Positions 30,304-62,683 of a stretch of DNA of 64,000 nt are shown here, in pieces. The DNA comes from Candidatus Termititenax sp. (GTDB lineage: Bacteria > Margulisbacteria > Riflemargulisbacteria > GWF2-35-9 > DYQY01): the NCBI GenBank assembly GCA_020719045.1, contig DYQY01000001.1:58516-122515 (forward strand), written 5' to 3'. The position numbers were made by a program, and so were the translations under genes. Within the stretch, counting starts at the first letter, position 1, and each line of letters starts with the position of its first letter. The notes beneath the pieces are model-generated. The model made no database searches. It was not told the DNA's origin and worked only from the letters and a program-made list of their open reading frames with translations.

Positions 30304-31421
30304 ATAGTTTCGCTAATCTGACTAAGCGGAATAATCATTACATAACCCAAAACAATTATTACTAGTGCTATTACAGCTATCGAAAAACTACTTATCAGAT
30401 TAGCCAATAATCCTTGTGTCTCTCTTTGTTTCTCCTCAGCTTCAATAATAAAGTTTTTATACAGACTCATCTTTCTCTCATTATCAGTTGCTAATACTGA
30501 TAGCACTCTTTGCTTATTTGGTATTACCTTAATCTCAAGTGCCTTTTCTAAAGATAGTCCCATTGTTAGTCTAGAAAAAATTGTTGATAAATAATAGACA
30601 TTTATCCCCTTCTTCTCCTGTTTTATGTATTCACTTATAAGCTCCTCCAGAGGCACACCAGTTTCTATAGCCATTAACGCAATCTGCCAAAAGTATGTCT
30701 GGAATTTTGCTTTATATAAATAATTTATTAACCTCGTTTCTGCCTTTACCTTCACCGGAACTAACTTGTAGGCAAAATAAACCATCAAGACCAATATTGC
30801 TAAAAAGGAAACTACTATCCACAAGTACTCTCTACTGATTATCCTTAACAAGAACGGTACTGCTTGTCCACTATCTTGAAAAAACAGCATAAAATTAGGA
30901 AGAATATTATATGAAACAAAAACTATCATTCCAAAACATGCCATCAATAAAACTGTCGGATAAGTTAGTCTGTTAACCAAATCTTTTGTATTTTTTACTC
31001 TTGCTCTTAGTATAACCACCATCTTTTCAAATAACTTCTGATTAATTGCTAATCTGTTCACTGTTAAAGAAGAAACTATCTCCTCACAAAACAAGTTTGA
31101 TTCTCTTAAAATCGTAGTAAAATCTTGTCCTCTTCTAAGTTCTGCCAAAACAAATTTACAAACATCCTTTATCTCTCTACTAGCAAACTTTTGATACTGC
31201 AAAAGTAGACTATAAATATTTTGTCCGTCTGAATAATAGAGTGCCAAAAACTCAAAAATCTCTAGCTGCTTAATAAGAGACAACTTACTTTTTAACTTTA
31301 TAAAGAAAACTTTCTTTATTATAAAACGCTCAATCTGATTCTGCGTAACCAGACTAAATCGCAATCCATTACGAGATAAATACAAAGCTCTAAATAGCAC
31401 CAAAATAAAACCTTTCTGCAT
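30300..31421 (-). CDS. Type II secretion F / PilC / ComGB family inner-membrane platform protein (start uncertain)
   Basis: Two cytoplasmic repeats (ELRRGQDFT; LTMGLSLEKAL), LTYP before TM1, three TM helices, MIIPL at the C-terminus. Confidence 0.7.
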   Translation of the reverse strand: MQKGFILVLFRALYLSRNGLRFSLVTQNQIERFIIKKVFFIKLKSKLSLIKQLEIFEFLALYYSDGQNIYSLLLQYQKFASREIKDVCKFVLAELRRGQDFTTILRESNLFCEEIVSSLTVNRLAINQKLFEKMVVILRARVKNTKDLVNRLTYPTVLLMACFGMIVFVSYNILPNFMLFFQDSGQAVPFLLRIISREYLWIVVSFLAILVLMVYFAYKLVPVKVKAETRLINYLYKAKFQTYFWQIALMAIETGVPLEELISEYIKQEKKGINVYYLSTIFSRLTMGLSLEKALEIKVIPNKQRVLSVLATDNERKMSLYKNFIIEAEEKQRETQGLLANLISSFSIAVIALVIIVLGYVMIIPLSQISETI

Positions 31422-32154: not shown

Positions 32155-33689
32155 TGCTTTCTTGGAAAAATCGGCTCTGGTTGATTTAGCATTCTGTCTT
32201 TAGTAAAGAATCCCCAAGTAAATGGATTTTGAAGCCTCTCTTCTTCTGATATATTTAATTGTTTGTAAAATAACGCTGTAACTGTAGGCATAAAAGGACT
32301 CAACCATGCTGTCACAATTCTTAGCGTTTCAATTAAATGAACCATCACTGTTGCTAGTTTCTCCATATTACCCTCTTTTTGCAATGTCCAAGGAGCCATC
32401 TCCTCAACAAACTTGTTAGCCCTTCTTATGACTGTAAAAATCTCCTCAAGCGCTATAGATAACTTAAAGGCATCGATCTTTGCAGGAATGCTGGATTCTA
32501 AGGCAATTACCATTTTCTTTAAACCCAACTCTTCCTCTGAAAATAAAGCATCGTTCGCTGATGGAACCTTAAGATCAAAGTACTTCTTTGTCATATTTAA
32601 AGTTCTATTTAGTAAGTTTCCATAATCATTAGCAAGGTCGCTATTGAATCTTTGCTTCATTGTTTCGTCTGTATAAGAACCATCTAACCCAAAAACCATT
32701 TCTCTTGATATATAGTATCTAAAAGGGTCTACACCGTATTCGTCAATAATAGCAAAAGGGTCTAATACATTACCCTTGGACTTTGACATCTTTTCTCCGC
32801 CTTGATAAATAAAGCCATGACCAAATACATGTTCTGGTACCTCTACTCCCATAGCCATTAACATTGCAGGCCATATTACCGCATGAAACTTGAGAATATC
32901 CTTACCTATTAAATGTACACTTGCTGGCCAATATCTTTCAAAAAAAGCATTATCTTTTTTATACTTAATGCCTGTTAAATAATTTAATAACGCATCAAAC
33001 CAAACATAAACGTAGTGTTTTTTTTCAGTATTCTCTAACTGTGGGAACTCTATTCCCCAGCTTATTGTTGTCCGACTAATACAAAGGTCTGTTAAGCCAC
33101 TTTCAACAAAACTAATAACTTCATTTTTTCTGCTTTCTGGTAATACAAAGTCTGGAACTTTCTTAATGTGGTCCAAAATCTTTTGTTGAAACTCAGATAA
33201 TCTAAAGAAATATGCTTCTTCTTGAAGCATTATTACTTCTCTTCCACAATCAGGGCATTTGCCATCCACTAATTGAGTTTCTGTAAAATATGCTTCACAA
33301 GGTCTACAATAAAGACCTTCATAGGAACCTAAATATATATAACCATTATCATATACTTGCTTTATTGTATCCTTAACAATTTCTTGATGCTCAATGTCTG
33401 TTGTTCTTATGAAACGATCATTAGAGATGTTTAGCTTTACCCAGAGTTCTTTAAACCTTAAGACAACACTATCAACTAATTCTTTTGGTGTTATTCCTTT
33501 TGCTTCAGCTGCTTTTTCTATTTTCTGACCATGCTCGTCTGTACCTGTTAGGAAAAAAACATCTTTACCTCTAAGCCTGTAGAACCTTGCTAAAATATCT
33601 GCAATTATTGTTGTGTAACAGTGGCCAATGTGGGGAATATCGTTAACATAATAAATAGGGGTCGTGATATAAACTGAATCCTTTACCAC
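32145..33689 (-). CDS. metG: Methionyl-tRNA synthetase (short form)
   Basis: YITTPIYYVN, HIGH, GTDEHG and KMSKS. Confidence 0.97.
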   Translation of the reverse strand: MVKDSVYITTPIYYVNDIPHIGHCYTTIIADILARFYRLRGKDVFFLTGTDEHGQKIEKAAEAKGITPKELVDSVVLRFKELWVKLNISNDRFIRTTDIEHQEIVKDTIKQVYDNGYIYLGSYEGLYCRPCEAYFTETQLVDGKCPDCGREVIMLQEEAYFFRLSEFQQKILDHIKKVPDFVLPESRKNEVISFVESGLTDLCISRTTISWGIEFPQLENTEKKHYVYVWFDALLNYLTGIKYKKDNAFFERYWPASVHLIGKDILKFHAVIWPAMLMAMGVEVPEHVFGHGFIYQGGEKMSKSKGNVLDPFAIIDEYGVDPFRYYISREMVFGLDGSYTDETMKQRFNSDLANDYGNLLNRTLNMTKKYFDLKVPSANDALFSEEELGLKKMVIALESSIPAKIDAFKLSIALEEIFTVIRRANKFVEEMAPWTLQKEGNMEKLATVMVHLIETLRIVTAWLSPFMPTVTALFYKQLNISEEERLQNPFTWGFFTKDRMLNQPEPIFPRKQCI

Positions 33690-36600
33690 TAATGGACAAC
33701 TCCTATCATTCTTACAATTTTAGTTGGCTTACCACTTGAGGCAAATGGTGCCGCCTCTATAACTGCAAAGTATCCACCTTTTGAAACAAATTGTCCAGAC
33801 TCATTCCTTCCGTCCCAATCAACTGAACAAAAGAATCCAGAGCCACTTGTTGCACCCTCTTTAGTAATTGCAGTGCTATCAAATCTTCTTACAAAATGCC
33901 CTAATGAATCATATATTGTTATACTTGCATCAATGTTTTGATTTAAAGAGAAAACTATTTTTGTAGTTTGAAATGCTGAATAAAAAGGATTTGGATAATT
34001 AGATACATTAAAAATAACTTCACTAGTATTAGTAGTCATAATCCTGTCACCTGAATCAAGATACTCGCTTGATGCTTTCGCTCCATTAACCGCCTTTACT
34101 CTATAGGCATACGGTGTATCATACAACACGCTCACATTGCTCCACTCACGATCATTTGCGTTTTTCGTTGCCACCTTCTGCCACACTAGTGACTGCCCTG
34201 CAAGCATCTCTACAATATAATAATCAATGACAGACTCTGCCTCAATAAACGGAGACCAAATCAAATCATGTCTATTTTCATCCCATTTAGCAATAACATG
34301 TAAACGATTATCATTTCCTACCCATGGAGGAGTAACGTCAGTATGAAATGCAAAGTCTCCTGTTATTGACCAATACTCTGTACCAGTTAATGTAGACTTA
34401 ACCTTTGCAGAAATATTGTAAGTTGTGTTATCAGCTAAAAACTTTAATGAATCAGTTATTGTAATACTTACTGTTGCTAACTGAATATCTTTACTGTTGG
34501 TTACATTATTTACTGAAACATACCCACTATAAATATCAGAACCACCAGATGTTGAACCTATTTTAACCAAGATAGTATCAACACCATTATTCTGAACATT
34601 AACTGATGTAGAATATCTAAAACTTATATTCCTGTGACTATTGATGTATGCATCCCCTGAAATAATAGGTCTAGTTGGTTGATAGTAACTCACAACCTGA
34701 ATCTTATTTGTTGTTACCTCTATCTCATTTAAAATTGTAGCATAAGCTTTCTCACCAGGAATTTGAAAACTAATGTTTCCTGATGCTGTTTCAGTGTTCA
34801 CAAACTTAATTTTATATGAAGCTTCTTTTCCAACATTACTTCCAATATATGGCCGAATAACTAATGCAAAATAATTTTCTGTTGCTAATATTCTTGGATT
34901 AGTTTGTGGATTTGAGCTATCTGCAAGCGTTATTCTTATTCTTTCTCCTGAAGGGGCTCTATCAATCTGAGTAACAGATACTTCCTCTGTATATGCGTAA
35001 TCATCATTCGCTTGAGAACCAGAATATCTATAAAGCTTAACCTCTACGTCACTATTAGCATTTGAATTTAATCTTAAGGTTCCTTGGTCTCTATATAAAT
35101 CTAAATAGTATAGTTTTGGATATTCTGCTGACCCTTTATAATCTAAGGATAATTTAAATTTAAGTAAATTTATGCTCTGATCTTGATAAACGTAACTCTC
35201 CGGATTTTTAAAGGTCTCAATCGAAACTTTTGAAACATAATAATCAGAATCAAAAGTAATTGTTCTAACTGGAAATTCTCCAGTATTTACCATCTTATCT
35301 CCACTCCTAAACTGAAAAGAGTCAGCGCTGACAATCTCAAATGAAAATTTCTTACCAGCACCTAATGTCTTATCTGTTTCAACCACAACATAAAACTCAG
35401 GATCTGTTGACCCAACATTAACTGGATAAGGAAATACAACATTAATTGTTGTTTGACTAATATTTAAAAACTTATCTGTTCCTGAACTCACAAGTAAATC
35501 ATCCACATCATACAGTTGATTTCCATTATCTTTATAAATAGCCACTCTTGTAATCTTAGTTGGATTAATATCTATTGAATAATTAAACTTCAATGTCAAA
35601 CCTGTCCAAAGAGCACCTTCAGCAGCTACTCCACCTGAACCAGCAGTTTCAGCAAGCCATGAACGCAACGCAAATTTCTTAGCAACAAAACTAACACCAG
35701 AATGAATTTCTCTGGTAACAATTAAAGACTCATCCTGTTCCTTTGGAATATAGGAAATATTTAACCTGGTTTTAGAAATATTAAAACTTGCAACAATCCC
35801 ATCCAGTGGTTGATTAGCCGGAGGAATAACAGACTCATAGTATAAAACATTAAACGCATCAACTGTCGCAAATCCAAAACCAATATACTCATTTTTTATA
35901 TCAGCACCAGAATACACATCTACAACCAAAAAGACCGTTGTGGTTGTCTGTGTGTCTACTATTTTCTCAGTAAACGATATATTCATAGTGTCTCCTACTC
36001 CTTGATAAGGCTTAGAAGCCATTAATAAATCTGTACTTTCACTAAATAATCCATCCTTGTCTTGATCATAGTATATATGAAACTTTTCAATTTTAGTTAC
36101 ATGCATATTATCAAGCTGTAAATTAACACCAGAAACATGAACATCTCTGCTGGATGCTTTTAGTTCAGCGTATATAACTGGTATTTTCTGCTTACCTACT
36201 TCTAAATTGTTAAAACTATATGCAGACACATGCTCACTTCTGCCTCTCGCAAAATAATCACCATAACTAAGAACCCTTAGTGGTCTTGCAAAAGGAGACC
36301 TTCCTATTAGCTGATTTCCTGCTAAATCCATAACATTAATACTAATATTCTTACCAATAGCCTGCTCTCTTGTATCAATAATACTTCTATCAACAGTTAC
36401 TCTATATAAATAATCATTACCCATTGTTCCAAGATAAGTCATATCTAGACTTCCCACGATGCTCCCATTCTCTGAAACTAACCAACAATTATGAGTTGTT
36501 GACAAATCTATTTGTTCGTTAAAAAACATTGTAACAACTATTGGATTTACTAAGTCTATATTGGTAGGTTGAATTACTGTCTCATAGGTAGGAGACTGGG

Positions 36601-39600
36601 AGTCATAAGTGATAAACCATCTAGCTGGCTCATCACATCTTGTTTGTGCATCAGCAACCCAAGCAATTATTTCTTTACGTCCTTGAGATGTGTCAGTAAG
36701 TATATGTTGTGCACTAAAACTTGCTACATATTCACCAGCAACGTCTGGCCATATATTATACTGATCCCATCTAGGGTTACCATAGTAATTATCAAATATA
36801 TAATATTTTCGATAGTCGTCACTGATAATGTTTCTACTTAATACATAGTTTATTGTTAAACTATTAGTATAATTACCATTTCCCCTATTAGAATAAACCT
36901 CAAACCTTGGAGTTGCTGGTATTGTTGAGTCAATAACAAAAGAACCACCAAGCGCTACAGATGTCGTTATATTCTTTGCTTCGTCTGTAACAATTACTTC
37001 AAAAATAGCATTATAGGTGGATTTTTCCTCTCCCAATAAATTAAACAAATTGTAAGTTGCCATCCAGTACGCTTTATATGCTGAACTATTCTCATTTGTG
37101 GCATCCCACCTATCTGAACTAATTAAAAATGGCACTAATATACTAACTGTTATAGGAGTAATAAAATCGTTTGCTGGATAAATCACAAGTCTCCAACTTG
37201 GTGTTACTGCTGCTCTTTCATAATAATTAATATCTTCTCCACTAAACGTCGTATTATGAGTAATTTCCATCTGTGCTCGATACAATATCTTTGATAGCTT
37301 CAGCCCTTCATATTGAACCTTTGTATCATCTGGTCTAATCATAACTTTTGGCTCAGACTGATCTAAAACAATACTACAAGTAACAGCCTCCATTGTATTG
37401 ATGCCTTTATCATTTATTACCCACAAATGTAACGTTCTTAAACCGTTAATAGAATATACATCTCCTTTTGGGAAAATATAGAGAATTAAATATTTTCTAG
37501 CACCATTAACAACTACATAGCTTTCAGTTGCAAGTGATTGCCAAGTTCTTCCAGCAGCTATTGCATAATTTACAGAAGAAGCATCTTCTCCCTCAAGAAT
37601 TAAATACTGATTTATACTAGTTCCAACAATAAAAGAAATACTTACAACATCAGCATTTGTTAAATCATTTCTTCCAGTTTCAATATCTTGCACATTAAAA
37701 GACTGAGGAAAAGGTACTTGCTCTGCTCCTAATTTAAAGAAATTACTATAACCATTGAACGTTGTTGCAATATTACCTGCGTCATCAACGAGTAGCACGC
37801 TGAAATGATGAACCCCATCATTCAAAACACCATTCATTGTTACAGAATACTCCCACGACCTTCCAAGCCCTCCAGTACAATTAATTGTAACAAGCTCACT
37901 TGCCCCGCCACTTATTGTATATCTCACAAACGGCGTAACAACTATTTCCTCTGAAACATCTAATGTAATATATAGAATATCCTGACTATTTATAAAAGGC
38001 ATAACATCATTACCAGACTGAGATCTCATTATTATATCTACAACTGGCCTAACTATATCAACTTTAATACCTCTTGTTGCCACGGTGCTGTTCCCAGCAT
38101 TATCCCAAACCTTAACATAACAATCAATTGTTGAATGGTTATTAGCCGAAACCAGTACCTGTGTAGCCACTAATACCATATCCAAGGTTGCGCTATACTC
38201 CGTTTGACCTGTCGATGCTTTTACTCGAACACTCTTAGATGGAAAACCACCAGCATCCACTGCAGTCCAAGTTAAAACAACATTTTCTGTGTTTAGCCAT
38301 CCACTTAACGGAAATGTTTTACTATATTCTTGGTTAAAAACTGAATAAATTGTCCCCTCAAGTTCAATCTGAGGTGATACAAATAATGAAGCCACAGGAG
38401 TTTCAACATCCACTTTTAATGGTACTGACTTAGTCGCTAAGTTACCTGCTCTATCTCTCACCTGAATATAAACATTCTGTGTTGCAAAATTATTTGGACT
38501 TACATATATTCCAGAATAACTTAATTCATATTGGAAGCTACTCCACACATCAACACCATCTGAACGAACCCTGTAAGGATTGTTGTGTAAGCTTCCTGCT
38601 CCATCATTTGTCTGATCCCAATTAAGATTAATTGTTGGGGTTGCATGCCAACCAGATTGTGGCCATATACCATCCTCCCCTGAATCAGAATCTGCTAGTA
38701 TTCTTGCTTCAAAATTAATTGCTGGAGCATCTGTATCAACATAAACATTTGTATTACTTAAAATAATATTACCAGCTCTATCAGAAATTGCTCCCACGAT
38801 ACTTCGTTGAAGTGCACCCGCATTTGCTATAAATAAAGTGGCATTTTGTGAGTTAATTGTACCGTTGGTAAAATACGTATCTGCTTCTCCCTTTAAAAAA
38901 TATCCATCAGTTCTAACATCAAATGTGTCAGCAACGGTTAATCCTGGTGCTACATAAAAAGAAAATGAAACAATATTCCTATTATACCAACCTGCATCAG
39001 GCGTCACCTGAAGACCAGCAACATAATTACATGTTATCAGCCTCAAAGTGAAAGAACCTAAAGGAGGCACCGAGTCAACGGTTACAAGCATACTCTTTGT
39101 TAATATGTTTCCTGCTCTATCTATATATCTAGTCTGGATAACATTTACTGTGTTAGAGCTAACTGGTAAATTTGTTATATATAGGTTAGATGTTGGTTCA
39201 CCCCAAGGATTATCATTTACCTTGAACTGAAACGGCCTGTTCCTTGCTGTTGGATCAGCCTGACTAAACATAATCATAAAAGTAATTTCAGGATTATCAT
39301 AATATCCCAATTCAGGATCTAATCCATCATTATTTGAGTCTGAGTCATACGACAAGTCAACCTGAAAATCATTTGGTGCAACTATATCAGAATATACGCT
39401 GTCATTAATTTCAGTAAAATTACCGGCTTTATCTACTAATAGCGCCTTAAAATTAATTGGTGTAGCATCGTTAGCGATTAAACTGACATTATTGAAACTA
39501 ATATTTTGTTCCAAAACGGATTGTATCGTTGGAACCACCGATTGGCCAATATACAACATTACCCTATGAAGTAAACCATTCTCTACCACAGAATCCCAAG

Positions 39601-41542
39601 TAATACTTAGATCTAGGGTTGCCTGATTGTACCATTTTGCTTCTGGAGTAACCCCCTCTGGTTTAGTTTCACACGCATCAAACGATATTTTAAAGTTTGT
39701 TGGCACAGGATCTTGCAAATCAACAAAAACTTGAGCAGTAACCGATGACATATTCCCTGCTTTATCTACAGCCATTAATAAAAATACATTATTAGTAATA
39801 TCAGCATCAGGAGTAACAACTACATCACTTACAATCTTTACCCAATCTGAAGTTGTAGCATTACTTGTGCCGACAAGATATCTATATTGAAAAGCCTTAT
39901 CTCTAAGTTGACCAGCATCTTCAGCATCACAACCCCATTTAACGTTTACATCGTTATACCAACCAATTTGCGGTAAAATATTTACTAGTACATTTTCTTT
40001 TCCGGTATAGTCTGGTACTAGTTGTAAACTTATGGTTGGCGCTATTGTATCAACTTTGATAGTTCCATATGATGTCTTAATATTCCCTGCTCGGTCTATT
40101 GCTCTAACCCATATACTACTTGCATTATTTCCCTTTGCATCAACTGTTACCCATGCCTGACTTGCAGACTGAGAAACCCCTAACATCACGTCGTCAGCCA
40201 CTAACGCTGACCAAGTACTCCAACCTTCACTCTTAAACTGATAAGCTAATATACCAGAACTATCAACTGGTTCAGCCCAGCTAAAACTCACTGTTTGATC
40301 GTTATACCATCCTTCCTCTGGTGCTATTTGGTCAGCTTCATTAATTAAGTCTGGCTGAACAGTAACAACAAATTCATTTGGTTCTGTAACATCAATTGTC
40401 ACTTTCACGCTCCTTGTCACAAAGTTATAGACATTATCAAAAACATGAACCACCAAATCTATATTTCCTTGAAGAGGAACATCATTATAGCTAAAAGTTA
40501 CTAAAAATGGTGCTGTTCTTGAAGTGAAAAATCCTGTTGAAGAATTAAATGGGTCAACCACCCAAATATTACTACTGATACCACTTTGCACTGTACCACT
40601 TGAGTCATTAGGGACTCCTTGTAAATTAAAACTAACTGTTATTCTGTTAAAGTAGCCTGCTAATGGCTTAATTATTGTTCCTTCACTATCAAACTCTGTT
40701 GCAGCAACATACTCAAGTGCCGCAAAAGCTACATTTGGATTAGTGTTATCTACCTCAATTAAAAAATATGACTTAGATGCTTCATCATCAAGAAGAGGTG
40801 CTCCATCAATATCTACAGATATCCACACTAAACTAGCTGCACTAGTAGGTATCGAAAAGTTAGTATAAATAAACTTGCCCCTATCACCTATACTTGCTAC
40901 TCCCTTTAAGTCACCAGAAACAAATAATTCTAAACTAAGTGGGATATGAGATGAAGGGAACACTTCTGGATCACCATAATAGTGAATTGTACCTGTTATG
41001 CTTAGCCCAGCATCAGGATAGCTACTATTATTAAGCCCTCCTTTAAATAAATGCCTATTACTTATTTTTGTACTATATTTTGAATTTGCATTAATTGTTA
41101 TTGTTTCTACTACATACTGGTCGTTAAAAACCACAGGTATTACCCATGGTAAGGGGTCTGCATCACCTACATCAACGGATATTGTATATTGAATGCCTCG
41201 CTGGAAGCTTCTATCGCTCCTTGGAACAAACCTAACGCGCCATAAATCTGTCGCATACTCCACGTTTGTTGTCAAAAACTGATTGCTTCCTTTAACGAAG
41301 CCCCACTTACCAGAAGCATTTGCTGTAATAACAACAACCTCAACACCATTATTATCTCTTATATCTACTGTAATATTATCGTCATAAGCATCTGTAACGT
41401 TTACCGAAATATACATATCTTGATATGCATGTATGTATTGGCTATCTGCTTTATCATGCGCCCAAAGCTTTAAATCATTTGACTGCAATGCGAAAGACAT
41501 TGCACTAAAAATAAAAAGAACAAACAAAATTAATTTTTTCAT
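33689..41542 (-). CDS. 2617-aa secreted Ig-like repeat surface protein with FN3-like module and C-terminal FlgD-Ig/T9SS-CTD-like domain
   Basis: Signal peptide (MSFA), many D(R/K)AGN Ig-type motifs, C-terminal NYPNPF..ITIYDSLGHFVR..WDGRNESG..GGYF. Confidence 0.85.
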   Translation of the reverse strand: MKKLILFVLFIFSAMSFALQSNDLKLWAHDKADSQYIHAYQDMYISVNVTDAYDDNITVDIRDNNGVEVVVITANASGKWGFVKGSNQFLTTNVEYATDLWRVRFVPRSDRSFQRGIQYTISVDVGDADPLPWVIPVVFNDQYVVETITINANSKYSTKISNRHLFKGGLNNSSYPDAGLSITGTIHYYGDPEVFPSSHIPLSLELFVSGDLKGVASIGDRGKFIYTNFSIPTSAASLVWISVDIDGAPLLDDEASKSYFLIEVDNTNPNVAFAALEYVAATEFDSEGTIIKPLAGYFNRITVSFNLQGVPNDSSGTVQSGISSNIWVVDPFNSSTGFFTSRTAPFLVTFSYNDVPLQGNIDLVVHVFDNVYNFVTRSVKVTIDVTEPNEFVVTVQPDLINEADQIAPEEGWYNDQTVSFSWAEPVDSSGILAYQFKSEGWSTWSALVADDVMLGVSQSASQAWVTVDAKGNNASSIWVRAIDRAGNIKTSYGTIKVDTIAPTISLQLVPDYTGKENVLVNILPQIGWYNDVNVKWGCDAEDAGQLRDKAFQYRYLVGTSNATTSDWVKIVSDVVVTPDADITNNVFLLMAVDKAGNMSSVTAQVFVDLQDPVPTNFKISFDACETKPEGVTPEAKWYNQATLDLSITWDSVVENGLLHRVMLYIGQSVVPTIQSVLEQNISFNNVSLIANDATPINFKALLVDKAGNFTEINDSVYSDIVAPNDFQVDLSYDSDSNNDGLDPELGYYDNPEITFMIMFSQADPTARNRPFQFKVNDNPWGEPTSNLYITNLPVSSNTVNVIQTRYIDRAGNILTKSMLVTVDSVPPLGSFTLRLITCNYVAGLQVTPDAGWYNRNIVSFSFYVAPGLTVADTFDVRTDGYFLKGEADTYFTNGTINSQNATLFIANAGALQRSIVGAISDRAGNIILSNTNVYVDTDAPAINFEARILADSDSGEDGIWPQSGWHATPTINLNWDQTNDGAGSLHNNPYRVRSDGVDVWSSFQYELSYSGIYVSPNNFATQNVYIQVRDRAGNLATKSVPLKVDVETPVASLFVSPQIELEGTIYSVFNQEYSKTFPLSGWLNTENVVLTWTAVDAGGFPSKSVRVKASTGQTEYSATLDMVLVATQVLVSANNHSTIDCYVKVWDNAGNSTVATRGIKVDIVRPVVDIIMRSQSGNDVMPFINSQDILYITLDVSEEIVVTPFVRYTISGGASELVTINCTGGLGRSWEYSVTMNGVLNDGVHHFSVLLVDDAGNIATTFNGYSNFFKLGAEQVPFPQSFNVQDIETGRNDLTNADVVSISFIVGTSINQYLILEGEDASSVNYAIAAGRTWQSLATESYVVVNGARKYLILYIFPKGDVYSINGLRTLHLWVINDKGINTMEAVTCSIVLDQSEPKVMIRPDDTKVQYEGLKLSKILYRAQMEITHNTTFSGEDINYYERAAVTPSWRLVIYPANDFITPITVSILVPFLISSDRWDATNENSSAYKAYWMATYNLFNLLGEEKSTYNAIFEVIVTDEAKNITTSVALGGSFVIDSTIPATPRFEVYSNRGNGNYTNSLTINYVLSRNIISDDYRKYYIFDNYYGNPRWDQYNIWPDVAGEYVASFSAQHILTDTSQGRKEIIAWVADAQTRCDEPARWFITYDSQSPTYETVIQPTNIDLVNPIVVTMFFNEQIDLSTTHNCWLVSENGSIVGSLDMTYLGTMGNDYLYRVTVDRSIIDTREQAIGKNISINVMDLAGNQLIGRSPFARPLRVLSYGDYFARGRSEHVSAYSFNNLEVGKQKIPVIYAELKASSRDVHVSGVNLQLDNMHVTKIEKFHIYYDQDKDGLFSESTDLLMASKPYQGVGDTMNISFTEKIVDTQTTTTVFLVVDVYSGADIKNEYIGFGFATVDAFNVLYYESVIPPANQPLDGIVASFNISKTRLNISYIPKEQDESLIVTREIHSGVSFVAKKFALRSWLAETAGSGGVAAEGALWTGLTLKFNYSIDINPTKITRVAIYKDNGNQLYDVDDLLVSSGTDKFLNISQTTINVVFPYPVNVGSTDPEFYVVVETDKTLGAGKKFSFEIVSADSFQFRSGDKMVNTGEFPVRTITFDSDYYVSKVSIETFKNPESYVYQDQSINLLKFKLSLDYKGSAEYPKLYYLDLYRDQGTLRLNSNANSDVEVKLYRYSGSQANDDYAYTEEVSVTQIDRAPSGERIRITLADSSNPQTNPRILATENYFALVIRPYIGSNVGKEASYKIKFVNTETASGNISFQIPGEKAYATILNEIEVTTNKIQVVSYYQPTRPIISGDAYINSHRNISFRYSTSVNVQNNGVDTILVKIGSTSGGSDIYSGYVSVNNVTNSKDIQLATVSITITDSLKFLADNTTYNISAKVKSTLTGTEYWSITGDFAFHTDVTPPWVGNDNRLHVIAKWDENRHDLIWSPFIEAESVIDYYIVEMLAGQSLVWQKVATKNANDREWSNVSVLYDTPYAYRVKAVNGAKASSEYLDSGDRIMTTNTSEVIFNVSNYPNPFYSAFQTTKIVFSLNQNIDASITIYDSLGHFVRRFDSTAITKEGATSGSGFFCSVDWDGRNESGQFVSKGGYFAVIEAAPFASSGKPTKIVRMIGVVH
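38060..40393 (-). repeat. Seven tandem Ig-like repeats of about 110 aa
   Basis: Recurring DxxxP..P(E/Q)xGW(Y/H)N..W..D(R/K)AGN units, starting DVTEP, DTIAP, DLQDP, DIVAP, DSVPP, DTDAP, DVETP. Confidence 0.75.
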
Positions 41543-41555
41543 TCTTCCCCCATAC

Positions 41556-42254
41556 TTAACTTATTACATTATTCACAAAAACTTCTTGCAACATTATATT
41601 TATTTCAATTCTACGATTCTTAGCTCTATTCTCTTCCGTATCATTAGGCATCATAGGACGATACTCTCCATATCCTACTGCCTGTATTCTCATGGGCGAT
41701 ATATCAACCTTCTCCACAAAAAACTTTATAACAGAATATGCTCTATCAAAAGAGAGGTCCCAATTAGAGTCGTACTTCTCTGTTTTAATAGGTATATTAT
41801 CAGTATGCCCTTCTATCACAATTTTATTATCGGTTTTTTTTAATATTTCTCCAATGTCTTTTAAAATCTCAAGTGCCTCTTCTTTTAACTCTGCTTTCCC
41901 TGTTTCATAAAGAATCGGGGAGGCTAATACAACTCTAATTTTACTCTCTTCCACCATTACATTTAAAAAATCACTCAATTTTTGTTCTTGAATGTATTGC
42001 TTAACTTTATCAACAACATTAATTCGCTCTTCATCTGGATTCTTCTCAGCTATCTTTGGCTGTAAATACTGTCCCTGCAACGAAACCCTAATTGACTCAA
42101 ACACCTGCTGTTGCTCACTCTCAGAAACATTGTTCATGATAAATGTGTACAACAACAAAAACAAAATCATTAAAAAGGAATTTAAGTCTGCCCATATAGT
42201 AAAGAAACTACCACCTTCACCGCCTCCTGATTTTTTTCTCTTTATTTTGAGCAT
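41556..42254 (-). CDS. motB: MotB-like stator subunit (TM with conserved Asp plus OmpA-like peptidoglycan-binding domain)
   Basis: FFTIWADLNSFLMILF; IEGHTD, NWDLSFDRA and NRRIEI. Confidence 0.9.
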   Translation of the reverse strand: MLKIKRKKSGGGEGGSFFTIWADLNSFLMILFLLLYTFIMNNVSESEQQQVFESIRVSLQGQYLQPKIAEKNPDEERINVVDKVKQYIQEQKLSDFLNVMVEESKIRVVLASPILYETGKAELKEEALEILKDIGEILKKTDNKIVIEGHTDNIPIKTEKYDSNWDLSFDRAYSVIKFFVEKVDISPMRIQAVGYGEYRPMMPNDTEENRAKNRRIEINIMLQEVFVNNVIS

Positions 42255-42259
42255 TCTGT

Positions 42260-43045
42260 TTACTCTTTTCCACTCTCTTGTTTTTTCTCTTTCTTTGCGT
42301 TATTTGATAAAAATCCTTTCAAGTAGGTCTCAACCTTAATTGGTATTTCACCTTTTGCAATCATTATTATTCCTTCAATCATTATTGTTTTACCCATTAA
42401 CTCCACATCGTTTCTCTTTTCTAACTTCTTTGCCATTGGAGACATCATAAATCCAGAAATAAAGACACCATAAAGAGTAGTTAATAGTGCTAATGCCATG
42501 GATGGACCCACCGTCTTAGGATCTGTCATGTTCTGTAGCACCTGGAGTATCCCAACAATGGTTCCAAACATACCAGTCAAAGGAGCAATTGTTCCCATAA
42601 AATTCATGCCTTCAGTATTTTTTGTATGTCTTGCATCTGTTTCCTGAAGTTCATTTTCTAAAACAACCCTTATAAAATCGGGGTGTAATTTGTTTACTAT
42701 CATTAGAAGACCATTATTTAAAAATCCATCACCAAAACCTTTGCCGGCATCTTCTAGTGCTAATCTACCTTCTTTCTGAGATAAAATTGATAGCTCAACA
42801 AGCTTATCAACTATTTCCGAGTTCGAAGGAAATTTATGTTTACCTAATAGTGCTCTAAAAGATGATAGAACACCTTTTAACTCAGATGCTGATGATGACA
42901 CAATAAATAATGTTATTGTTCCACCTATTACCATTATTGCTGACTCTAACTGCATATAAGTTGCAGGATGTACAAATATATCTGGCACAGAAAGCACCAA
43001 AACCAAAAACGTTCCTATCATACCAATAAAAAAGAAAATATCCAT
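42260..43045 (-). CDS. motA: MotA-like stator subunit
   Basis: IGGTI, KEGRLALE, APLTGMFGTIVG..NMTDP..VGPSMALALLTTLYG and GEIPIKV. Confidence 0.9.
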   Translation of the reverse strand: MDIFFFIGMIGTFLVLVLSVPDIFVHPATYMQLESAIMVIGGTITLFIVSSSASELKGVLSSFRALLGKHKFPSNSEIVDKLVELSILSQKEGRLALEDAGKGFGDGFLNNGLLMIVNKLHPDFIRVVLENELQETDARHTKNTEGMNFMGTIAPLTGMFGTIVGILQVLQNMTDPKTVGPSMALALLTTLYGVFISGFMMSPMAKKLEKRNDVELMGKTIMIEGIIMIAKGEIPIKVETYLKGFLSNNAKKEKKQESGKE

Positions 43046-43067: not shown

Positions 43068-43832
43068 TTACTTTTTAGCTTTTGCTACATCATCTCCTAG
43101 TATTGGCTCTATGAAACCATCTACTTCTAGGTTCTTTGAGTACTCAATAATGTACTGCTGTGATTTCTTGATTTCAGTCTTTGAATATTTATTTTTCCCG
43201 AATTCAATACCTTGTTGAACCATATTCTTTATACCTTTTGGCATAACCCCATACAATTTTTCTATCTTATCTTCTGGCATTTGGCAAAAAGCTATCGATA
43301 AAACATCTGAAGGTATATCTGAAAAAATCCTTGCAAAGTCTTTATCTGATACATTAAATAAATCTTCAAAAAACAACATAATTTTTCTAAATGAAGAAGC
43401 TGTTTCTGGATATCGAGAGGCTACTGTATCATTTAACAATGTCTTTTGATCAATATCTAAAAACTCAACTATTTTAGCAAGAACGTATCTTCCACCAAAC
43501 TGCTCTGTTAATAGTTTTCTCAATATTTTATCAAATTGCTCTATTTCTTTCTTTGTAAACTGAATAAGCGAAAGCATCTCGGCTATTATCTGAGCTCTCA
43601 TTTCATCATCAAACTCTTCCATAATTCTCTGTGCAACATCTGGCTCAACAGAAGATATAACTAAATATAAATATTTCATATTCTCTTCTTTTGATTTAAT
43701 AATCTTTTTTAAAACGTGTGCTGTATGATAGGCATTCTCTTTGTTTATATATGCAAAGTGTTCTTTCTTGACTTGGTCAATATTAACAGTTTCATTTCCA
43801 ACTAAATTTATTATATCTTGTTTATCTACCAT
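43068..43832 (-). CDS. FliG-like protein (middle and C-terminal domains only)
   Basis: FGGRYVLAKI..YPETASSFRKIMLFFEDL (MFxF-like)..QQYII; start placed at ATG 43832, 1 nt after the upstream stop. Confidence 0.75.
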   Translation of the reverse strand: MVDKQDIINLVGNETVNIDQVKKEHFAYINKENAYHTAHVLKKIIKSKEENMKYLYLVISSVEPDVAQRIMEEFDDEMRAQIIAEMLSLIQFTKKEIEQFDKILRKLLTEQFGGRYVLAKIVEFLDIDQKTLLNDTVASRYPETASSFRKIMLFFEDLFNVSDKDFARIFSDIPSDVLSIAFCQMPEDKIEKLYGVMPKGIKNMVQQGIEFGKNKYSKTEIKKSQQYIIEYSKNLEVDGFIEPILGDDVAKAKK

Positions 43833-43833
43833 T

Positions 43834-45441
43834 TTATAATTCAATAAACCCTTCTCGCTCTAAGTGCTGAGCGTAACTCAATACCTTCTGCCTTGCTTCC
43901 TCAACATCAAACTTAGATGCTGTGTTAGACTTTAGCGCTAACCATTGATCAACCATTGCTTGAATGCCTCTTGCCAATGTGTTGATAACTTTTCTTTGTC
44001 TCTCTGGATCAACATGTACTAATGACGTTGCAATTACCTCGGTATCCATATCGCTAAATACCCTCGCAATAACATTTGTATCAAGTTTTAATAAATCATC
44101 AAATAAGAAAATTAGAGCATTAACTTCATCTGCAATACCTGGATATTTAGATGAAATAATGTCCAATATCTTTTTCTTATCTTCTCCCGGTATTCTTTCA
44201 ATAATTAACTTGAGCCTATTTCTTCCCCCGAATAAATATTCTATATTTTCTTTTATCTCGTTTTCCAACACTTGCATCTCACTATCAGGATAATGCTGTA
44301 ATGACATAATATTATTTACAATTTCTGCCTGTATTTTAGCTGGATACTCAACCAAAATAGAAGACGCTATCTTAAATGGCAAGCAAGACATTACAACAGC
44401 TATTGTCCTTGGAGAGGCTTGCTGAAGCGCTATCTTAACTTGTAATAAAAATTTTAACTTAAATACATTTTCCTCATCAATAAAATTAAAATATCTTTCA
44501 CCATTACCTAAAATACCTTTCTGCATTTCAAGTAACTTTTCTTCTTCTTCTTGTTTTTTAGCTTCTTCTTCTTTTTTCTTTTTCTGCTCTGCATCTCTTT
44601 TCTGTTTTTCAGCTGCGCTCATTGGCACTCCTGCCTCACCAGCATCTGAACCTTTGCCCTCACCTGCTCCAGCACCCTCACCAGCGCCAGCTCCAGAACC
44701 TGAACCACTTCCTGCTCCAGCAGCACCTTTTCCGGATCCTGCTGATTCTTTTTCTGCACCTGCTCCATCTTCACCTGCTCCAGACTTATCTTTCTTGCCT
44801 CTATTTGGTAGTATTTTTAGTAACACAATGCCAATAATTAATAACAACAATACAATAACTGATATAACGATTATTGGAGTCCAGTCGTTTTTCTTTTTAG
44901 AAGTTACGCTTGATGCTGATTTATCAGACTTCTGCATTGTGGAAAAATTTTCTCTTAATATTGTGAATTTATCGCCTGCATTTTCATCTAACTCTAAAAA
45001 CTTTGTAACAAAAGTTTTTGCCGCTCTCAAGTCACCCATTTTAATTTTATTATCTAAAATTAGTACAACATCTTTATTATTAACAATAGGTGGTCTCTGA
45101 ACTATTTCATAGTTAAGTGGAACGCCTTCTCCGCCACCACCCTGGGTAAGAAACTTGAGTGATGGAATACCTGGAACAACTGTCTGTTGTGAGCCACCAG
45201 ATCCCCTTGAGTCCATTCCATCAATTTGAGGTAAAGATGTATACCTTATCTCGAACTTTTCTGATTCGCCTAATAGTGAAATATAAACAATAGAGTTATC
45301 TGGACCAAGGATCCTATCTAACGCTGATTGAACTGTATCTTCTAAGTGCTTTTGGTTATCCAATAATGATTGTGCACTAACTGGCACATAAAAAAATAAG
45401 ACGAATAACCCCAAAAGCAATATTTGTTTTGCTTTTACCAC
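43834..45441 (-). CDS. Fusion protein: signal peptide, FliF/RBM3-like periplasmic domain, TM, Gly/Ala linker, FliG(M+C)
   Basis: LEDTVQSALDRILG..VVPG..VVLILD..GDKFTI resembles FliF C-terminal ring domain; SPRTIAVVMSCL..GG..IFLFDDL..DVEEARQK resembles FliG. Confidence 0.7.
   Translation of the reverse strand: MVKAKQILLLGLFVLFFYVPVSAQSLLDNQKHLEDTVQSALDRILGPDNSIVYISLLGESEKFEIRYTSLPQIDGMDSRGSGGSQQTVVPGIPSLKFLTQGGGGEGVPLNYEIVQRPPIVNNKDVVLILDNKIKMGDLRAAKTFVTKFLELDENAGDKFTILRENFSTMQKSDKSASSVTSKKKNDWTPIIVISVIVLLLLIIGIVLLKILPNRGKKDKSGAGEDGAGAEKESAGSGKGAAGAGSGSGSGAGAGEGAGAGEGKGSDAGEAGVPMSAAEKQKRDAEQKKKKEEEAKKQEEEEKLLEMQKGILGNGERYFNFIDEENVFKLKFLLQVKIALQQASPRTIAVVMSCLPFKIASSILVEYPAKIQAEIVNNIMSLQHYPDSEMQVLENEIKENIEYLFGGRNRLKLIIERIPGEDKKKILDIISSKYPGIADEVNALIFLFDDLLKLDTNVIARVFSDMDTEVIATSLVHVDPERQRKVINTLARGIQAMVDQWLALKSNTASKFDVEEARQKVLSYAQHLEREGFIEL
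44620..44780 (-). repeat. Gly/Ala/Glu low-complexity linker (GAGEG-type repeats)
   Basis: GAGEDGAG..GAGSGSGSGAGAGEGAGAGEGKGSDAGEAG. Confidence 0.8.
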
Positions 45442-57129: not shown

Positions 57130-57153
57130 TTATTGTTTCTTCCTTTCTATGCC

Positions 57154-59508
<2,355 letters not shown>

Positions 59509-59519
59509 TCATTCTCTCC

Positions 59520-60326: not shown

Positions 60327-60328
60327 AT

Positions 60329-62463: not shown

Positions 62464-62683
62464 ATTACTACTCCTTATTATTTTTATATATTCAACCCTT
62501 ATTCATCATAGGTGTTTATATCTAGAACAACTTTAATTTTATCGATTGTTATCATGAAATAATCTCCACAACTTATAAGATTATATTCCTAGTGTTATCA
62601 ACAAAATTATAATTATTTAACTTATCCCCTTTTTATCTAAACTTATTAATAAGTTATTAACAACATTATCAACAAAATAAAAT
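62464..62683. other. Probable oriC (dnaA-dnaN intergenic), AT-rich, with variant DnaA boxes
   Basis: TTATCAACA at 62595 and 62666, TTATTAACA at 62654, TTATCCCCT at 62622; position is typical of Firmicutes-type origins. Confidence 0.6.

What the first reader, a model, noticed from the sequence alone, without database searches (positions are those of the whole stretch)
43834..45441. Natural FliF(RBM3-like)-TM-FliG fusion with a cleavable signal peptide
Canonical FliF has two TMs and RBM1-3 and binds FliG-N. Here a Sec-type signal (VSA/QS) is followed by only an RBM3/SpoIIIAG-like domain, one TM, a ~60-aa Gly/Ala linker, a Lys/Glu coiled coil and FliG M+C. RBM1/2 house the T3SS export gate in flagella, so their absence argues against flagellar export. 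The layout recalls laboratory FliF-FliG deletion fusions of Salmonella.
Basis: partly seen in the sequence, partly recalled or inferred. Interest (0 to 1): 0.8.

Follow-up and report, generated by a model that had tools for sequence, protein, structure and literature searches.

The report
Stripped-down flagellar rotor fusion protein
A single gene in a Margulisbacteria genome joins the ring-forming outer part of the flagellar base protein FliF to the torque-receiving part of FliG. It sits beside its own MotAB stator genes and a giant surface-protein gene, so it looks like an undescribed rotary motor built from flagellar parts without the flagellar export machinery.

Summary
The ORF at 43834..45441 (-) is real and encodes 535 aa.

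- **Layout:** Sec-type signal peptide, FliF RBM3/beta-collar-like periplasmic domain, one TM helix, Gly/Ala/Ser linker, Lys/Glu helix, then FliG middle and C-terminal domains.
- **RBM3 evidence:** Foldseek's top 18 hits are all FliF S-rings. hhalign against canonical FliF gives 98.2% probability (E 4e-14).
- **What is missing:** RBM1/2, FliG_N and the FliM-binding EHPQ motif.
- **Operon:** a colinear free FliG_MC paralogue, PomA-like MotA, MotB, and a 2617-aa secreted protein with a T9SS-like C-terminal domain.
- **Family size:** at least 109 protein clusters (50% identity) share the architecture, in Margulisbacteria and at least Elusimicrobiota.
- **Recurring neighbours:** MotAB, TPR proteins and giant proteins of up to 16,931 aa.
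- **Flagella:** published gene tables show Riflemargulisbacteria also carry canonical FliF, FliG and FliM. This gene is therefore an extra rotor, not the MS ring.

Best reading: an export-gate-less, MotAB-driven rotor. Its output is unknown but probably linked to giant surface proteins. Ring formation, rotation and signal-peptide cleavage are inferred, not shown. I found no prior description. I rate it a new variant of a known kind, of high interest.

The parts
45373..45441 (-). Signal peptide, aa 1-23 (MVKAKQILLLGLFVLFFYVPVSA|QS)
   Evidence: Hydropathy. Small or aliphatic residues at -3 and -1 in 21/21 homologues. Cleavage itself was not tested.
44917..45372 (-). Periplasmic FliF RBM3/beta-collar-like domain, aa 24-175
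   Evidence: AF2 fold is alpha-beta-beta-[insert]-beta-beta-alpha-beta. The top 18 Foldseek hits are FliF RBM3 rings. hhalign against FliF gives 98.2%. The family profile hits canonical FliF.
45121..45234 (-). Shortened collar-like insert, aa 70-107, with the invariant PG.P motif (P90 G91 P93)
   Evidence: pLDDT is below 50 in the monomer model. It aligns to the FliF collar segment GG..GT.SN / TNYEV. Invariant columns are listed.
44809..44880 (-). Single transmembrane helix, aa 188-211 (equivalent to FliF TM2)
   Evidence: Mean KD hydropathy 3.68. AF2 helix H188-210.
44593..44787 (-). Gly/Ala/Ser-rich disordered cytoplasmic linker, aa 219-283
   Evidence: Composition. pLDDT 31-37. Length varies between relatives.
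44521..44616 (-). Lys/Glu-rich long helix, aa 276-307
   Evidence: AF2 helix H276-307. Composition. Coiled-coil state was not tested.
44230..44505 (-). FliG middle domain (ARM_M) with preceding conserved GNG.RYFNF helix, aa 313-404
   Evidence: Pfam FliG_M E 2e-11. Aligned to T. maritima FliG_MC, with EHPQ replaced by ASPR.
43837..44157 (-). FliG C-terminal (torque) domain, aa 429-535
   Evidence: Pfam FliG_C E 1.3e-15. Foldseek TM 0.89 to 1qc7 and rmsd 1.6 A to FliG_C bound to MotAB in 8ucs_H. The IFLF hinge and DVEEARQKV helix are conserved.
43068..43844 (-). Free FliG_MC-only paralogue ('FliG2', 258 aa); its start overlaps the fusion's end by 11 nt
   Evidence: Pfam FliG_M and FliG_C. Gapless 218-aa alignment to fusion aa 317-534, E 5e-30. 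Conserved next to the fusion in all clade-1 loci and in L021.
42260..43045 (-). MotA/PomA-type stator A subunit (261 aa)
   Evidence: Pfam MotA_ExbB. Full-length match to Vibrio PomA 8bri, E 2.9e-40, with the K89, E96 and E97 equivalents kept. Below NCBIfam equivalog cut-offs.
41556..42254 (-). MotB-type stator B subunit (232 aa): plug, TM with Asp (WADL), OmpA-like peptidoglycan-binding domain
   Evidence: Pfam MotB_plug and OmpA. NCBIfam MotS/MotB-like matches. Sequence shown.
33689..41542 (-). Giant secreted protein (2617 aa): signal peptide, Ig-like repeats, fn3, C-terminal NYPNPF / FlgD_ig (T9SS-CTD-like) domain
   Evidence: Pfam FlgD_ig 30.2 bits. One N-terminal hydrophobic segment. Full-length homologues lie next to the fusion and FliG2 in all clade-1 loci, and its C-terminal part matches the 16,931-aa giant of L019.

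Best explanation
The gene encodes the rotor subunit of a flagellar-motor-derived rotary machine that has no type III export gate.

**Proposed assembly.** After Sec export and probable signal-peptide cleavage, the RBM3/collar-like domain oligomerises on the periplasmic face of the inner membrane into an S-ring-like ring. One TM helix per subunit crosses the membrane. A flexible linker and a helix then hold a FliG middle + C-terminal domain under the membrane. The covalent link replaces the FliF C-terminal tail / FliG_N contact of flagella. The co-translated free FliG_MC paralogue probably co-assembles with the fused FliG domains.

**Proposed drive.** The PomAB-like MotAB units encoded in the same operon bind peptidoglycan, conduct ions and push on the FliG_C torque helix, turning the ring.

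**Proposed output.** It is not a flagellum. The lineage appears to have a separate canonical FliF/FliG/FliM set. The output is most likely coupled to the giant CTD-bearing envelope protein encoded next to it, through adhesin movement, deployment or secretion.

**What is shown and what is inferred.** Shown: domain homologies, topology signals, operon structure, family size and recurrent neighbours. Inferred: ring formation, rotation, MotA-FliG contact and the link to the giant protein.
For: **Domain identity**
- RBM3. Intermediate family members (P0100, P0110) pass the Pfam YscJ_FliF_C threshold.
- FliG_MC.

**Ring capacity**
- Isolated FliF RBM3 forms rings in vitro (PMC8786727).
- Engineered Vibrio FliF-FliG fusions form S-rings (PMC11481574).

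**Stator**
- The MotA is PomA-like over its full length and keeps the K89, E96 and E97 equivalents.
- MotB has a plug, an Asp-bearing TM and an OmpA domain.
- The torque helix keeps a basic residue (R/K491) and an acidic residue (D498) seven residues apart, and the DVEEARQK motif.

**Not the flagellar MS ring**
- No RBM1/2, no FliG_N and no EHPQ motif.
- Riflemargulisbacteria genomes list canonical FliF, FliG, FliM, FliN and FlhA.

**Conserved module**
- At least 109 of 158 representative clusters have the N-domain, TM and FliG in that order.
- MotAB is adjacent in the window and in L012, L004, L015, L017, L019, L020 and L022.
- Giant or CTD proteins are adjacent in all clade-1 loci (2513-2617 aa), L021 (3722 aa), L019 (16,931 aa), L022 (14,454 aa) and L020 (730-aa CHU_C/FlgD_ig protein).
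Against: - No oligomer prediction or experiment was possible.
- The collar insert is much shorter than in FliF and is modelled with low confidence.
- In the HMMER alignment the canonical torque-helix charges (E. coli R281, D288, D289, R297) align to G, Q, W and A. The R/K...D pair fits only after a one-residue register shift.
- MotA R88 is Q.
- In 48%-identity relatives motAB is not in the cluster.
- Flanking housekeeping genes (SSB, MetRS) are syntenic as well, so within clade 1 the adjacency of the giant gene could simply be inherited gene order.
- The lineage is flagellated, and one clade-2 locus has flagellar genes within 10 kb. FlbD sits next to motA in L022. A flagellar role therefore cannot be excluded.
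Confidence: 0.6

Rival explanations
1. It is a component of the ordinary flagellar motor of these bacteria. It could be an accessory ring around the MS/C ring, or in some lineages the working FliG, and the adjacent MotAB would be the flagellar stators.
For: - Margulisbacteria are described as motile by polar flagella (PMC6349859 supplementary note).
- The clade-2 locus L004 has FlhB-like, FliK, FlgF/G/A/H/I genes within 10 kb.
- FlbD precedes motA in L022.
- The MotA is of the flagellar PomA type.
- In Marinamargulisbacteria single-cell genomes FliG is only 'check_length' or absent and FliM is absent. These genomes are incomplete.
Against: - There is no RBM1/2 to house an export gate, no FliG_N and no EHPQ FliM-binding motif.
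- Riflemargulisbacteria have separate 'reliable' FliF, FliG and FliM.
- Across phyla the conserved neighbours are giant secreted proteins and TPR/beta-barrel proteins, not flagellar genes.
- No flagellar gene lies in the 64-kb window.
Confidence: 0.2
2. It is a static envelope scaffold or anchor that does not rotate. The RBM3 ring and the ARM-repeat FliG fold would serve only as assembly platforms, for example for the giant protein or a secretion apparatus. MotAB would act as a peptidoglycan-tethered ion channel or energiser, as SiiAB does for the giant adhesin SiiE.
For: - Torque-helix charges are only partly conserved.
- The FliG fold also occurs in the non-rotary MgtE N domain (weak MgtE_N hits).
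- SiiAB are MotAB-like, proton-conducting and serve a giant-adhesin T1SS without a known rotor (10.1101/641415).
- RBM rings are static in injectisomes and in SpoIIIAG (one search lists them as weaker structural matches).
Against: - The MotA is of the flagellar (PomA) type over its full length, including the cytoplasmic rotor-facing residues.
- FliG_C superposes on the FliG_C fragment bound to MotAB (8ucs_H, rmsd 1.6 A).
- The MFxF-type hinge and the torque-helix motif DVEEA(R/Q)QK are strongly conserved in the family. That is hard to explain without a stator interface.
Confidence: 0.14
3. It is an artefact: a frameshift, misassembly or gene-calling error has joined two separate genes.
For: None was found. 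The GTG start and the low-complexity linker could in principle hide an error.
Against: The same continuous architecture is found in 26 close homologues from independent assemblies, in 9 GTDB species genomes and in at least 109 clusters at 50% identity. The start position and the SD sequence are conserved.
Confidence: 0.01

Closest known systems
Flagellar rotor-stator core: FliF MS-ring (RBM3 S-ring/beta-collar) + FliG + MotAB/PomAB
   Same: The RBM3/collar domain, the TM2-like helix, FliG_M, FliG_C and a PomA-like stator are all homologous. The expected working principle is the same: ion-driven MotA pentamers pushing on FliG_C.
   Different: - No RBM1/RBM2, so no housing for the FliPQR/FlhAB export gate.
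- No uncleaved TM1, no FliF C-terminal tail and no FliG_N; these are replaced by a covalent link.
- No EHPQ motif for FliM.
- The collar is shortened.
- A free FliG_MC paralogue and a giant secreted protein are co-encoded in place of rod, hook or switch genes.
Chlamydiaceae natural FliF-FliG fusion (Bergeron 2016, PMC4768692)
   Same: It is a natural single polypeptide joining a truncated FliF periplasmic region to a FliG-like cytoplasmic domain, and it is suspected not to build a flagellum.
   Different: The chlamydial protein (~330 aa) keeps two TM helices, an RBM2-like domain plus a second RBM-like segment, lacks the SpoIIIAG-like RBM3, and carries only FliG_M. The protein here is the complement: RBM3 only, one TM, and FliG M+C with a dedicated MotAB.
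Laboratory FliF-FliG fusions of Salmonella and Vibrio (PMC11481574, PMC10941966)
   Same: FliF is joined covalently to FliG. These fusions assemble into rings, and in Salmonella they support rotation.
   Different: They contain full-length or nearly full-length FliF (RBM1-3, two TMs) and FliG including most of FliG_N. They are engineered, not natural.
SpoIIIAG sporulation ring
   Same: An RBM3-type fold with an insertion that forms a beta-barrel ring. It is a structural match at Foldseek E 4.6e-3.
   Different: It is a clearly weaker match than FliF. It has no FliG and no MotAB, it belongs to the sporulation channel of Firmicutes, and it is static.
SiiAB-SiiE of Salmonella SPI4 (10.1101/641415)
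   Same: A MotAB-like proton-conducting, peptidoglycan-binding pair is encoded with, and needed for the function of, a giant adhesin.
   Different: The SiiAB system has no FliG- or FliF-like rotor and works with a T1SS. The similarity here is functional analogy only.
GldLM/PorLM motor with SprB adhesin (Bacteroidota gliding / T9SS; from general knowledge)
   Same: An ion-driven 5:2 motor in the inner membrane acts on giant cell-surface adhesins that carry a C-terminal sorting domain. The giant protein here ends in an NYPNPF / FlgD_ig-type CTD-like domain.
   Different: GldM is a periplasmic shaft and is not a FliF/FliG ring. No T9SS core genes were seen in the window, and their presence elsewhere in the genome was not tested.

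Membership tests
FliF (flagellar M-ring protein; Pfam YscJ_FliF + YscJ_FliF_C) | RBM1-RBM2 region (PF01514), which houses the export gate | tested here: not met
   There is no PF01514 hit at E<=1. The mature protein starts directly with the RBM3-like helix.
FliF (flagellar M-ring protein; Pfam YscJ_FliF + YscJ_FliF_C) | RBM3 / beta-collar domain (PF08345) | tested here: met
   Pfam itself misses this protein. Foldseek's top 18 hits are FliF RBM3. hhalign gives 98.2% and E 4e-14 against FliF columns 241-414. Family members P0100 and P0110 pass the PF08345 cut-off.
FliF (flagellar M-ring protein; Pfam YscJ_FliF + YscJ_FliF_C) | Two membrane-spanning helices flanking the periplasmic region | tested here: inconclusive
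   The TM2 equivalent is present at aa 188-211. The N-terminal hydrophobic segment looks like a cleavable signal peptide (A/G/S at -1 in 21/21 homologues), but no SignalP run or experiment was done.
FliF (flagellar M-ring protein; Pfam YscJ_FliF + YscJ_FliF_C) | C-terminal cytoplasmic peptide that binds FliG_N | tested here: not met
   It is replaced by a linker, a helix and a covalently attached FliG_MC.
FliF (flagellar M-ring protein; Pfam YscJ_FliF + YscJ_FliF_C) | Assembly into a ring of about 33-35 subunits | not testable with these tools
   Only monomer AF2 was available. The literature shows that isolated RBM3 forms rings (PMC8786727).
FliG (TIGR00207 equivalog) | Whole-protein score above the curated cut-off | tested here: not met
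   64.9 bits against a cut-off of 226.7.
FliG (TIGR00207 equivalog) | FliG_N (ARM_N) domain binding FliF | tested here: not met
   There is no FliG_N hit. The alignment to T. maritima FliG starts at the helix before ARM_M.
FliG (TIGR00207 equivalog) | FliG_M and FliG_C domains with the MFxF hinge | tested here: met
   Pfam FliG_M 2e-11 and FliG_C 1.3e-15. 3ajc E 1.2e-20, with MFVF aligned to IFLF. Foldseek 1lkv 1.7e-9.
FliG (TIGR00207 equivalog) | EHPQ motif (FliM binding) | tested here: not met
   T. maritima EHPQ aligns with ASPR. The family consensus is ATPR/ASPR.
FliG (TIGR00207 equivalog) | Charged torque-helix residues (E. coli K264, R281, D288, D289, R297) | tested here: inconclusive
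   In the HMMER register they align to V, G, Q, W and A. A conserved R/K491...D498 pair with the same i/i+7 spacing sits one residue earlier, and DVEEARQK is conserved. Mapping to E. coli numbers rests on my own knowledge plus PMC7564593.
Flagellar stator MotA/PomA + MotB | Four-TM A subunit with a cytoplasmic torque interface and charged rotor-facing residues | tested here: met
   PomA 8bri E 2.9e-40 over residues 1-249. K89, E96 and E97 align to K, E and D; R88 aligns to Q. It is below the NCBIfam equivalog cut-offs (172 against 340 bits).
Flagellar stator MotA/PomA + MotB | B subunit with plug, TM Asp and OmpA-like peptidoglycan-binding domain | tested here: met
   Pfam MotB_plug 1.9e-7 and OmpA 4.2e-20. 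WADL Asp in the TM segment.
Chlamydiaceae-type FliF-FliG fusion | RBM2-like periplasmic domain, two TMs, FliG_M only | tested here: not met
   Here there is RBM3 only, one TM plus a signal peptide, and FliG_M + FliG_C, compared with the description in PMC4768692.
T9SS cargo / gliding adhesin system | C-terminal sorting-type domain on the giant protein | tested here: inconclusive
   Pfam FlgD_ig 30.2 bits, above the cut-off of 27, and an NYPNPF motif. No NCBIfam T9SS sorting-domain hit at E<=1e-3.
T9SS cargo / gliding adhesin system | T9SS core genes (SprA, PorV, GldK/L/M/N) in the genome | not tested
   None were seen among the ORFs annotated in the 64-kb window.

The most novel reading that the evidence does not exclude
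This is the rotor of a previously unrecognised class of bacterial rotary nanomachine. It would be a MotAB-driven FliF(RBM3)-FliG ring with no type III export gate, rod, hook or switch, spread over several phyla. Its torque would be used to move, deploy or secrete giant CTD-bearing surface proteins. It would be either a stripped-down offshoot of the flagellar motor or a relic of a rotor-stator module older than the flagellum.
Probability: 0.35. Interest if true: 0.92.

Novelty: new variant of a known kind. Interest (0 to 1): 0.8.

Why it matters
The flagellar motor is the textbook rotary machine, and its rotor (FliF/FliG) is known only as part of a type III export apparatus.

A widespread natural protein that keeps just the S-ring/collar and the torque domain, has its own stators, and has giant surface proteins as recurrent neighbours would show that the rotor-stator core can exist as a separate module with another output.

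That bears directly on two questions:
- How the flagellum was assembled in evolution, that is, whether the rotor or the export gate came first.
- Whether undiscovered surface-motility or adhesin-deployment machines exist in uncultured phyla.

It also offers a minimal, single-polypeptide rotor for structural and biophysical work on MotA-FliG torque generation.

Tried and rejected
- **Pfam and NCBIfam on the N-terminal 330 aa:** nothing useful.
- **Sequence profile against PDB:** only a weak FliF hit, E 0.29. Structure and profile-profile methods were needed instead.
- **First listing of cluster members:** no organism names.
- **Word-indexed homology search with the giant protein's C-terminal 348 aa:** one fragment only.
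- **Flagellar gene content of the window's own genome:** could not be examined. I relied on published tables for related Riflemargulisbacteria genomes.
- **Literature searches:** no description of this family. The paper on Termititenax is not in the library.

Readings I rejected:
- The gene as the sole MS ring. Canonical FliF is reported in the lineage.
- Shared homology of the giant proteins as strong evidence in itself. Much of it is an fn3 plus CTD-like tail that is common in secreted proteins.
- Assembly artefact. The architecture is conserved in many independent assemblies.
Full report
**1. Observation**

The ORF at 43834..45441 (minus strand, GTG start, 535 aa) exists as described. A GAGGG Shine-Dalgarno sequence lies 5-6 nt upstream.

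- **N-terminus.** The hydrophobic N-terminus ends in VSA|QS. In the alignment of 22 homologues, every sequence with an intact N-terminus has A, G or S at -1 and a small or aliphatic residue at -3.
- **TM helix.** A single, very hydrophobic helix spans aa 188-211 (AF2 helix H188-210).
- **Linker.** aa 219-283 are 68% Gly/Ala/Ser and are modelled as disordered. This linker is about 30-40 residues shorter in more distant relatives.
- **K/E helix.** AF2 predicts a Lys/Glu-rich helix at aa 276-307.
- **FliG domains.** Pfam finds FliG_M (338-401, E 2e-11) and FliG_C (429-535, E 1.3e-15). It finds no FliG_N and no YscJ_FliF.

**2. The periplasmic domain**

Pfam and NCBIfam are silent on aa 24-175. 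Four other lines of evidence identify it.

- **Fold.** An AF2 model built from an 18-sequence alignment has a confident alpha-beta-beta-[insert]-beta-beta-alpha-beta core (pLDDT above 90) and a low-confidence insert.
- **Structure search.** Foldseek against the PDB returns FliF RBM3/beta-collar S-ring chains as the 18 best hits (E 8e-7 to 1e-5, probability 1.0). SpoIIIAG follows at 4.6e-3 and PrgK at 2.5e-2.
- **Profile search.** A profile of the domain, searched against 1.84 billion representative proteins, reaches canonical FliF proteins at E 4e-6 and 1.6e-5 (P0145 and P0155). Both contain Pfam YscJ_FliF plus YscJ_FliF_C. Two family members (P0100, P0110) pass the Pfam threshold for YscJ_FliF_C in this domain.
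- **Profile-profile comparison.** hhalign against eight canonical FliFs gives 98.2% probability and E 4e-14, with 146 columns aligned to FliF columns 241-414. Matching motifs are PGIPS with GG..GT.SN, LNYEV with TNYEV, DVVLILD with RLSVAVVVD, and LDE.GDK.TIL.E.F with G.D.RGD.L.V..PF.

The domain is therefore a FliF RBM3 homologue with a shortened collar segment.

**3. The cytoplasmic part**

aa 313-535 align end to end with the T. maritima FliG_MC crystal constructs (3ajc, E 1.2e-20). In the full-length AF2 model this part matches FliG_MC structures (1lkv, E 1.7e-9). Its FliG_C superposes on 1qc7 (TM 0.89) and on the FliG_C fragment bound to a MotAB stator (8ucs_H, rmsd 1.6 A).

- **Junction.** It falls at the helix preceding ARM_M, so the FliF-binding FliG_N is absent. 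The covalent link appears to replace the FliF-tail / FliG_N contact.
- **EHPQ motif.** This FliM-binding motif is ASPR here.
- **Hinge and torque helix.** The MFxF hinge is IFLF. The torque-helix motif DVEEAQQKI is DVEEARQKV.
- **Canonical charged residues.** They are only partly kept. In the HMMER register, E. coli R281, D288, D289 and R297 (mapped from my own knowledge of the sequences and PMC7564593) fall on G, Q, W and A. A conserved R/K491...D498 pair with the same seven-residue spacing lies one position earlier. I count this as inconclusive.

**4. Operon**

Four further genes follow on the same strand.

- **FliG2.** A 258-aa FliG_MC-only protein whose start overlaps the fusion's end by 11 nt. 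It aligns to fusion aa 317-534 without a gap (25% identity, E 5e-30). The basic torque-helix residue is kept, and the acidic one is Gln.
- **MotA.** A 261-aa MotA that matches Vibrio PomA over its full length (E 2.9e-40). PomA K89, E96 and E97 are conserved as K, E and D; R88 is Q.
- **MotB.** It has a plug, a TM Asp (WADL) and an OmpA-like domain.
- **Giant protein.** A 2617-aa protein with an N-terminal signal peptide, Ig-like repeats, an fn3 domain and a C-terminal NYPNPF / FlgD_ig domain of the T9SS-CTD type.

MetRS and TatD follow downstream. SSB and HU lie upstream. None of the proteins reaches the NCBIfam equivalog cut-offs for FliG, MotA or MotB.

**5. Relatives and organism**

- **Close homologues.** The word-indexed search found 26 full-length homologues. 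Those with names are Candidatus Margulisbacteria or Riflemargulisbacteria. A scan of GTDB species genomes found nine loci, all in Margulisbacteria MAGs.
- **Gene order in close relatives.** In close relatives and in GWF2_35_9 (66% identity) the order fusion, FliG2, MotA, MotB, giant is kept.
- **Gene order in 48%-identity relatives.** The order is SSB, fusion, FliG2, giant (2513-2585 aa), MetRS, with motAB elsewhere. The giant proteins are homologous over their full length.
- **Family size.** The exhaustive profile search found 215 representatives at E<=1e-3. Of the 158 I examined, 109 have the periplasmic domain, a TM segment and a FliG region in that order. Thirteen are canonical FliFs, and most of the rest are fragments.

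Named members of the other clades are as follows.

- **Second Margulisbacteria clade** (Marinamargulisbacteria SCGC AG-439-L15, Margulisbacteria EXS67). Context: HemL, TPR protein, fusion, MotA, MotB, then Rho on the opposite strand.
- **Margulisbacteria GWD2_39_127.** Context: response regulator, fusion, FliG_C-only protein, 197-aa protein, 3722-aa Kelch-repeat giant.
- **Longer forms with C-terminal TPRs.** One is from Elusimicrobiota. Their contexts:
  - L019: 16,931-aa giant, UPF0164/TPR protein, fusion, MotA, MotB, 824-aa protein.
  - L022: 14,454-aa giant, TPR protein, fusion, 800-aa protein, FlbD, MotA, OmpA, MotB.
  - L020: 730-aa fn3/CHU_C/FlgD_ig protein, TPR protein, fusion, MotA, MotB.

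The TPR/beta-barrel proteins upstream of the fusion are homologous between these loci. The window's giant shares 24% identity over 649 aa with the C-terminal part of the L019 giant.

**6. Is the host flagellated?**

The 64-kb window carries no flagellar gene beyond this operon. It does carry an MCP and a PilC-like gene.

Carnevali et al. [quoted passage not shown] Their Supplementary Data 2 lists FliF, FliG, FliM, FliN, FlhA/B, FliPQR, the rod, hook and L/P-ring genes for the five Riflemargulisbacteria genomes. One clade-2 locus has flagellar rod, ring and hook-length genes within 10 kb.

The fusion is thus an additional FliF/FliG-derived gene in a lineage that most likely has ordinary flagella. 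It is not a replacement for the MS ring. For the incomplete Marinamargulisbacteria single-cell genomes, FliG is only 'check_length' or missing and FliM is missing. A flagellar role there cannot be excluded.

**7. Mechanism**

*Shown:* homology of each domain, topology signals, the operon, the family and its recurrent neighbours.

*From the literature:* isolated FliF RBM3 forms rings (PMC8786727). Engineered FliF-FliG fusions form S-rings (PMC11481574). MotA R90/E98 contact FliG D289/R281 (PMC7564593).

*Inferred:*
- The RBM3 domains form an S-ring-like ring on the periplasmic face.
- One TM helix per subunit and a flexible tether place a ring of FliG_MC under the membrane.
- FliG2 co-assembles through ARM_M/ARM_C-type stacking.
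- MotAB units turn the ring.
- With no RBM1/2, FliG_N or EHPQ motif, there is no place for an export gate or a FliM/FliN switch.

The output is unknown. The recurrent linkage to giant, signal-peptide- and CTD-bearing proteins in at least four divergent lineages suggests that the ring acts on such proteins, through movement, deployment or secretion. The analogies are GldLM/SprB gliding and the MotAB-like SiiAB that serves the giant adhesin SiiE (10.1101/641415). I put about 0.6 on a flagellum-independent rotor and about 0.35 on the specific coupling to giant surface proteins.

**8. Rivals**

- **A part of the ordinary flagellar motor (0.2).** For: the flagellated lineage, the flagellar-type stator, FlbD, and the L004 context. 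Against: the missing domains, the presence of canonical FliF/FliG/FliM, and the non-flagellar conserved neighbours.
- **A static scaffold with MotAB as an energiser (0.14).** For: the partial loss of torque-helix charges and the SiiAB precedent. Against: the strong conservation of the hinge, the torque-helix motif and PomA's rotor-facing residues.
- **An artefact (0.01).** Excluded by conservation in many independent assemblies.

**9. Novelty**

Six of the ten full-text searches were aimed at prior descriptions of such a family. None found a natural RBM3-TM-FliG_MC family or its MotAB/giant-protein operon. Sources label the members 'FliG C-terminal domain-containing protein' or 'hypothetical'.

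The only natural FliF-FliG fusion I found described is the chlamydial one. It keeps the opposite half of FliF and only FliG_M (PMC4768692).

I classify the finding as a new variant of a known kind (the flagellar rotor-stator module), with a realistic chance that it defines a new machine. The library does not cover all journals, so an existing description cannot be ruled out.

Noticed in passing
window 54664-63940 (-) and 60001-64000: gyrA, gyrB, dciA, recF, dnaN and dnaA lie in a row on the minus strand. GC falls to 0.26-0.29 in the last 4 kb. The chromosomal replication origin is probably at or just beyond the 3' end of the window.
   Followed up: partly
window 25225-30303 (+): A 1692-aa ORF has only a weak, sub-threshold match to a phage distal tail protein family (DUF2460 / TIGR02217, aa 825-884). 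It is otherwise unannotated and is the second very large protein in the window.
   Followed up: no
window 10495-11940 (-) and 30300-31421 (-): A methyl-accepting chemotaxis protein and a PilC/GspF-like platform protein (T2SSF) are present. They fit a motile, piliated organism.
   Followed up: no
L004 1-21470; L015; L017: A second, paralogous clade of the fusion occurs in (Marina)margulisbacteria. It has no FliG2 or giant gene but has a conserved TPR protein overlapping its start. It lies between heme-biosynthesis genes and rho. In L004, flagellar rod, ring and hook-length genes are within 10 kb.
   Followed up: partly
PMC6349859 Supplementary Data 2: In the roughly 26 Saganbacteria genome columns, FliF, FlhA/B, FliPQR, and the rod, hook and L/P-ring genes are listed as present. 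FliG and FliM are 'N/A' throughout. Either these genomes have very divergent switch proteins or something unusual replaces them.
   Followed up: no
L019 1-8090; L022 1-7823; L021 4131-12721: Genes for proteins of 16,931 aa, 14,454 aa and 3,722 aa sit directly beside fusion genes in other lineages. UPF0164/FadL-like beta-barrel-TPR proteins and 800-850-aa coiled-coil-like proteins recur in these clusters.
   Followed up: partly
window 5619-6908 (+): A single polypeptide carries a thioredoxin domain fused to a thioredoxin-reductase-like pyridine nucleotide-disulphide oxidoreductase.
   Followed up: no
window 12399-14576 (-): A SulP-family permease carries a STAS domain and a C-terminal cyclic-nucleotide-binding domain.
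   Followed up: no
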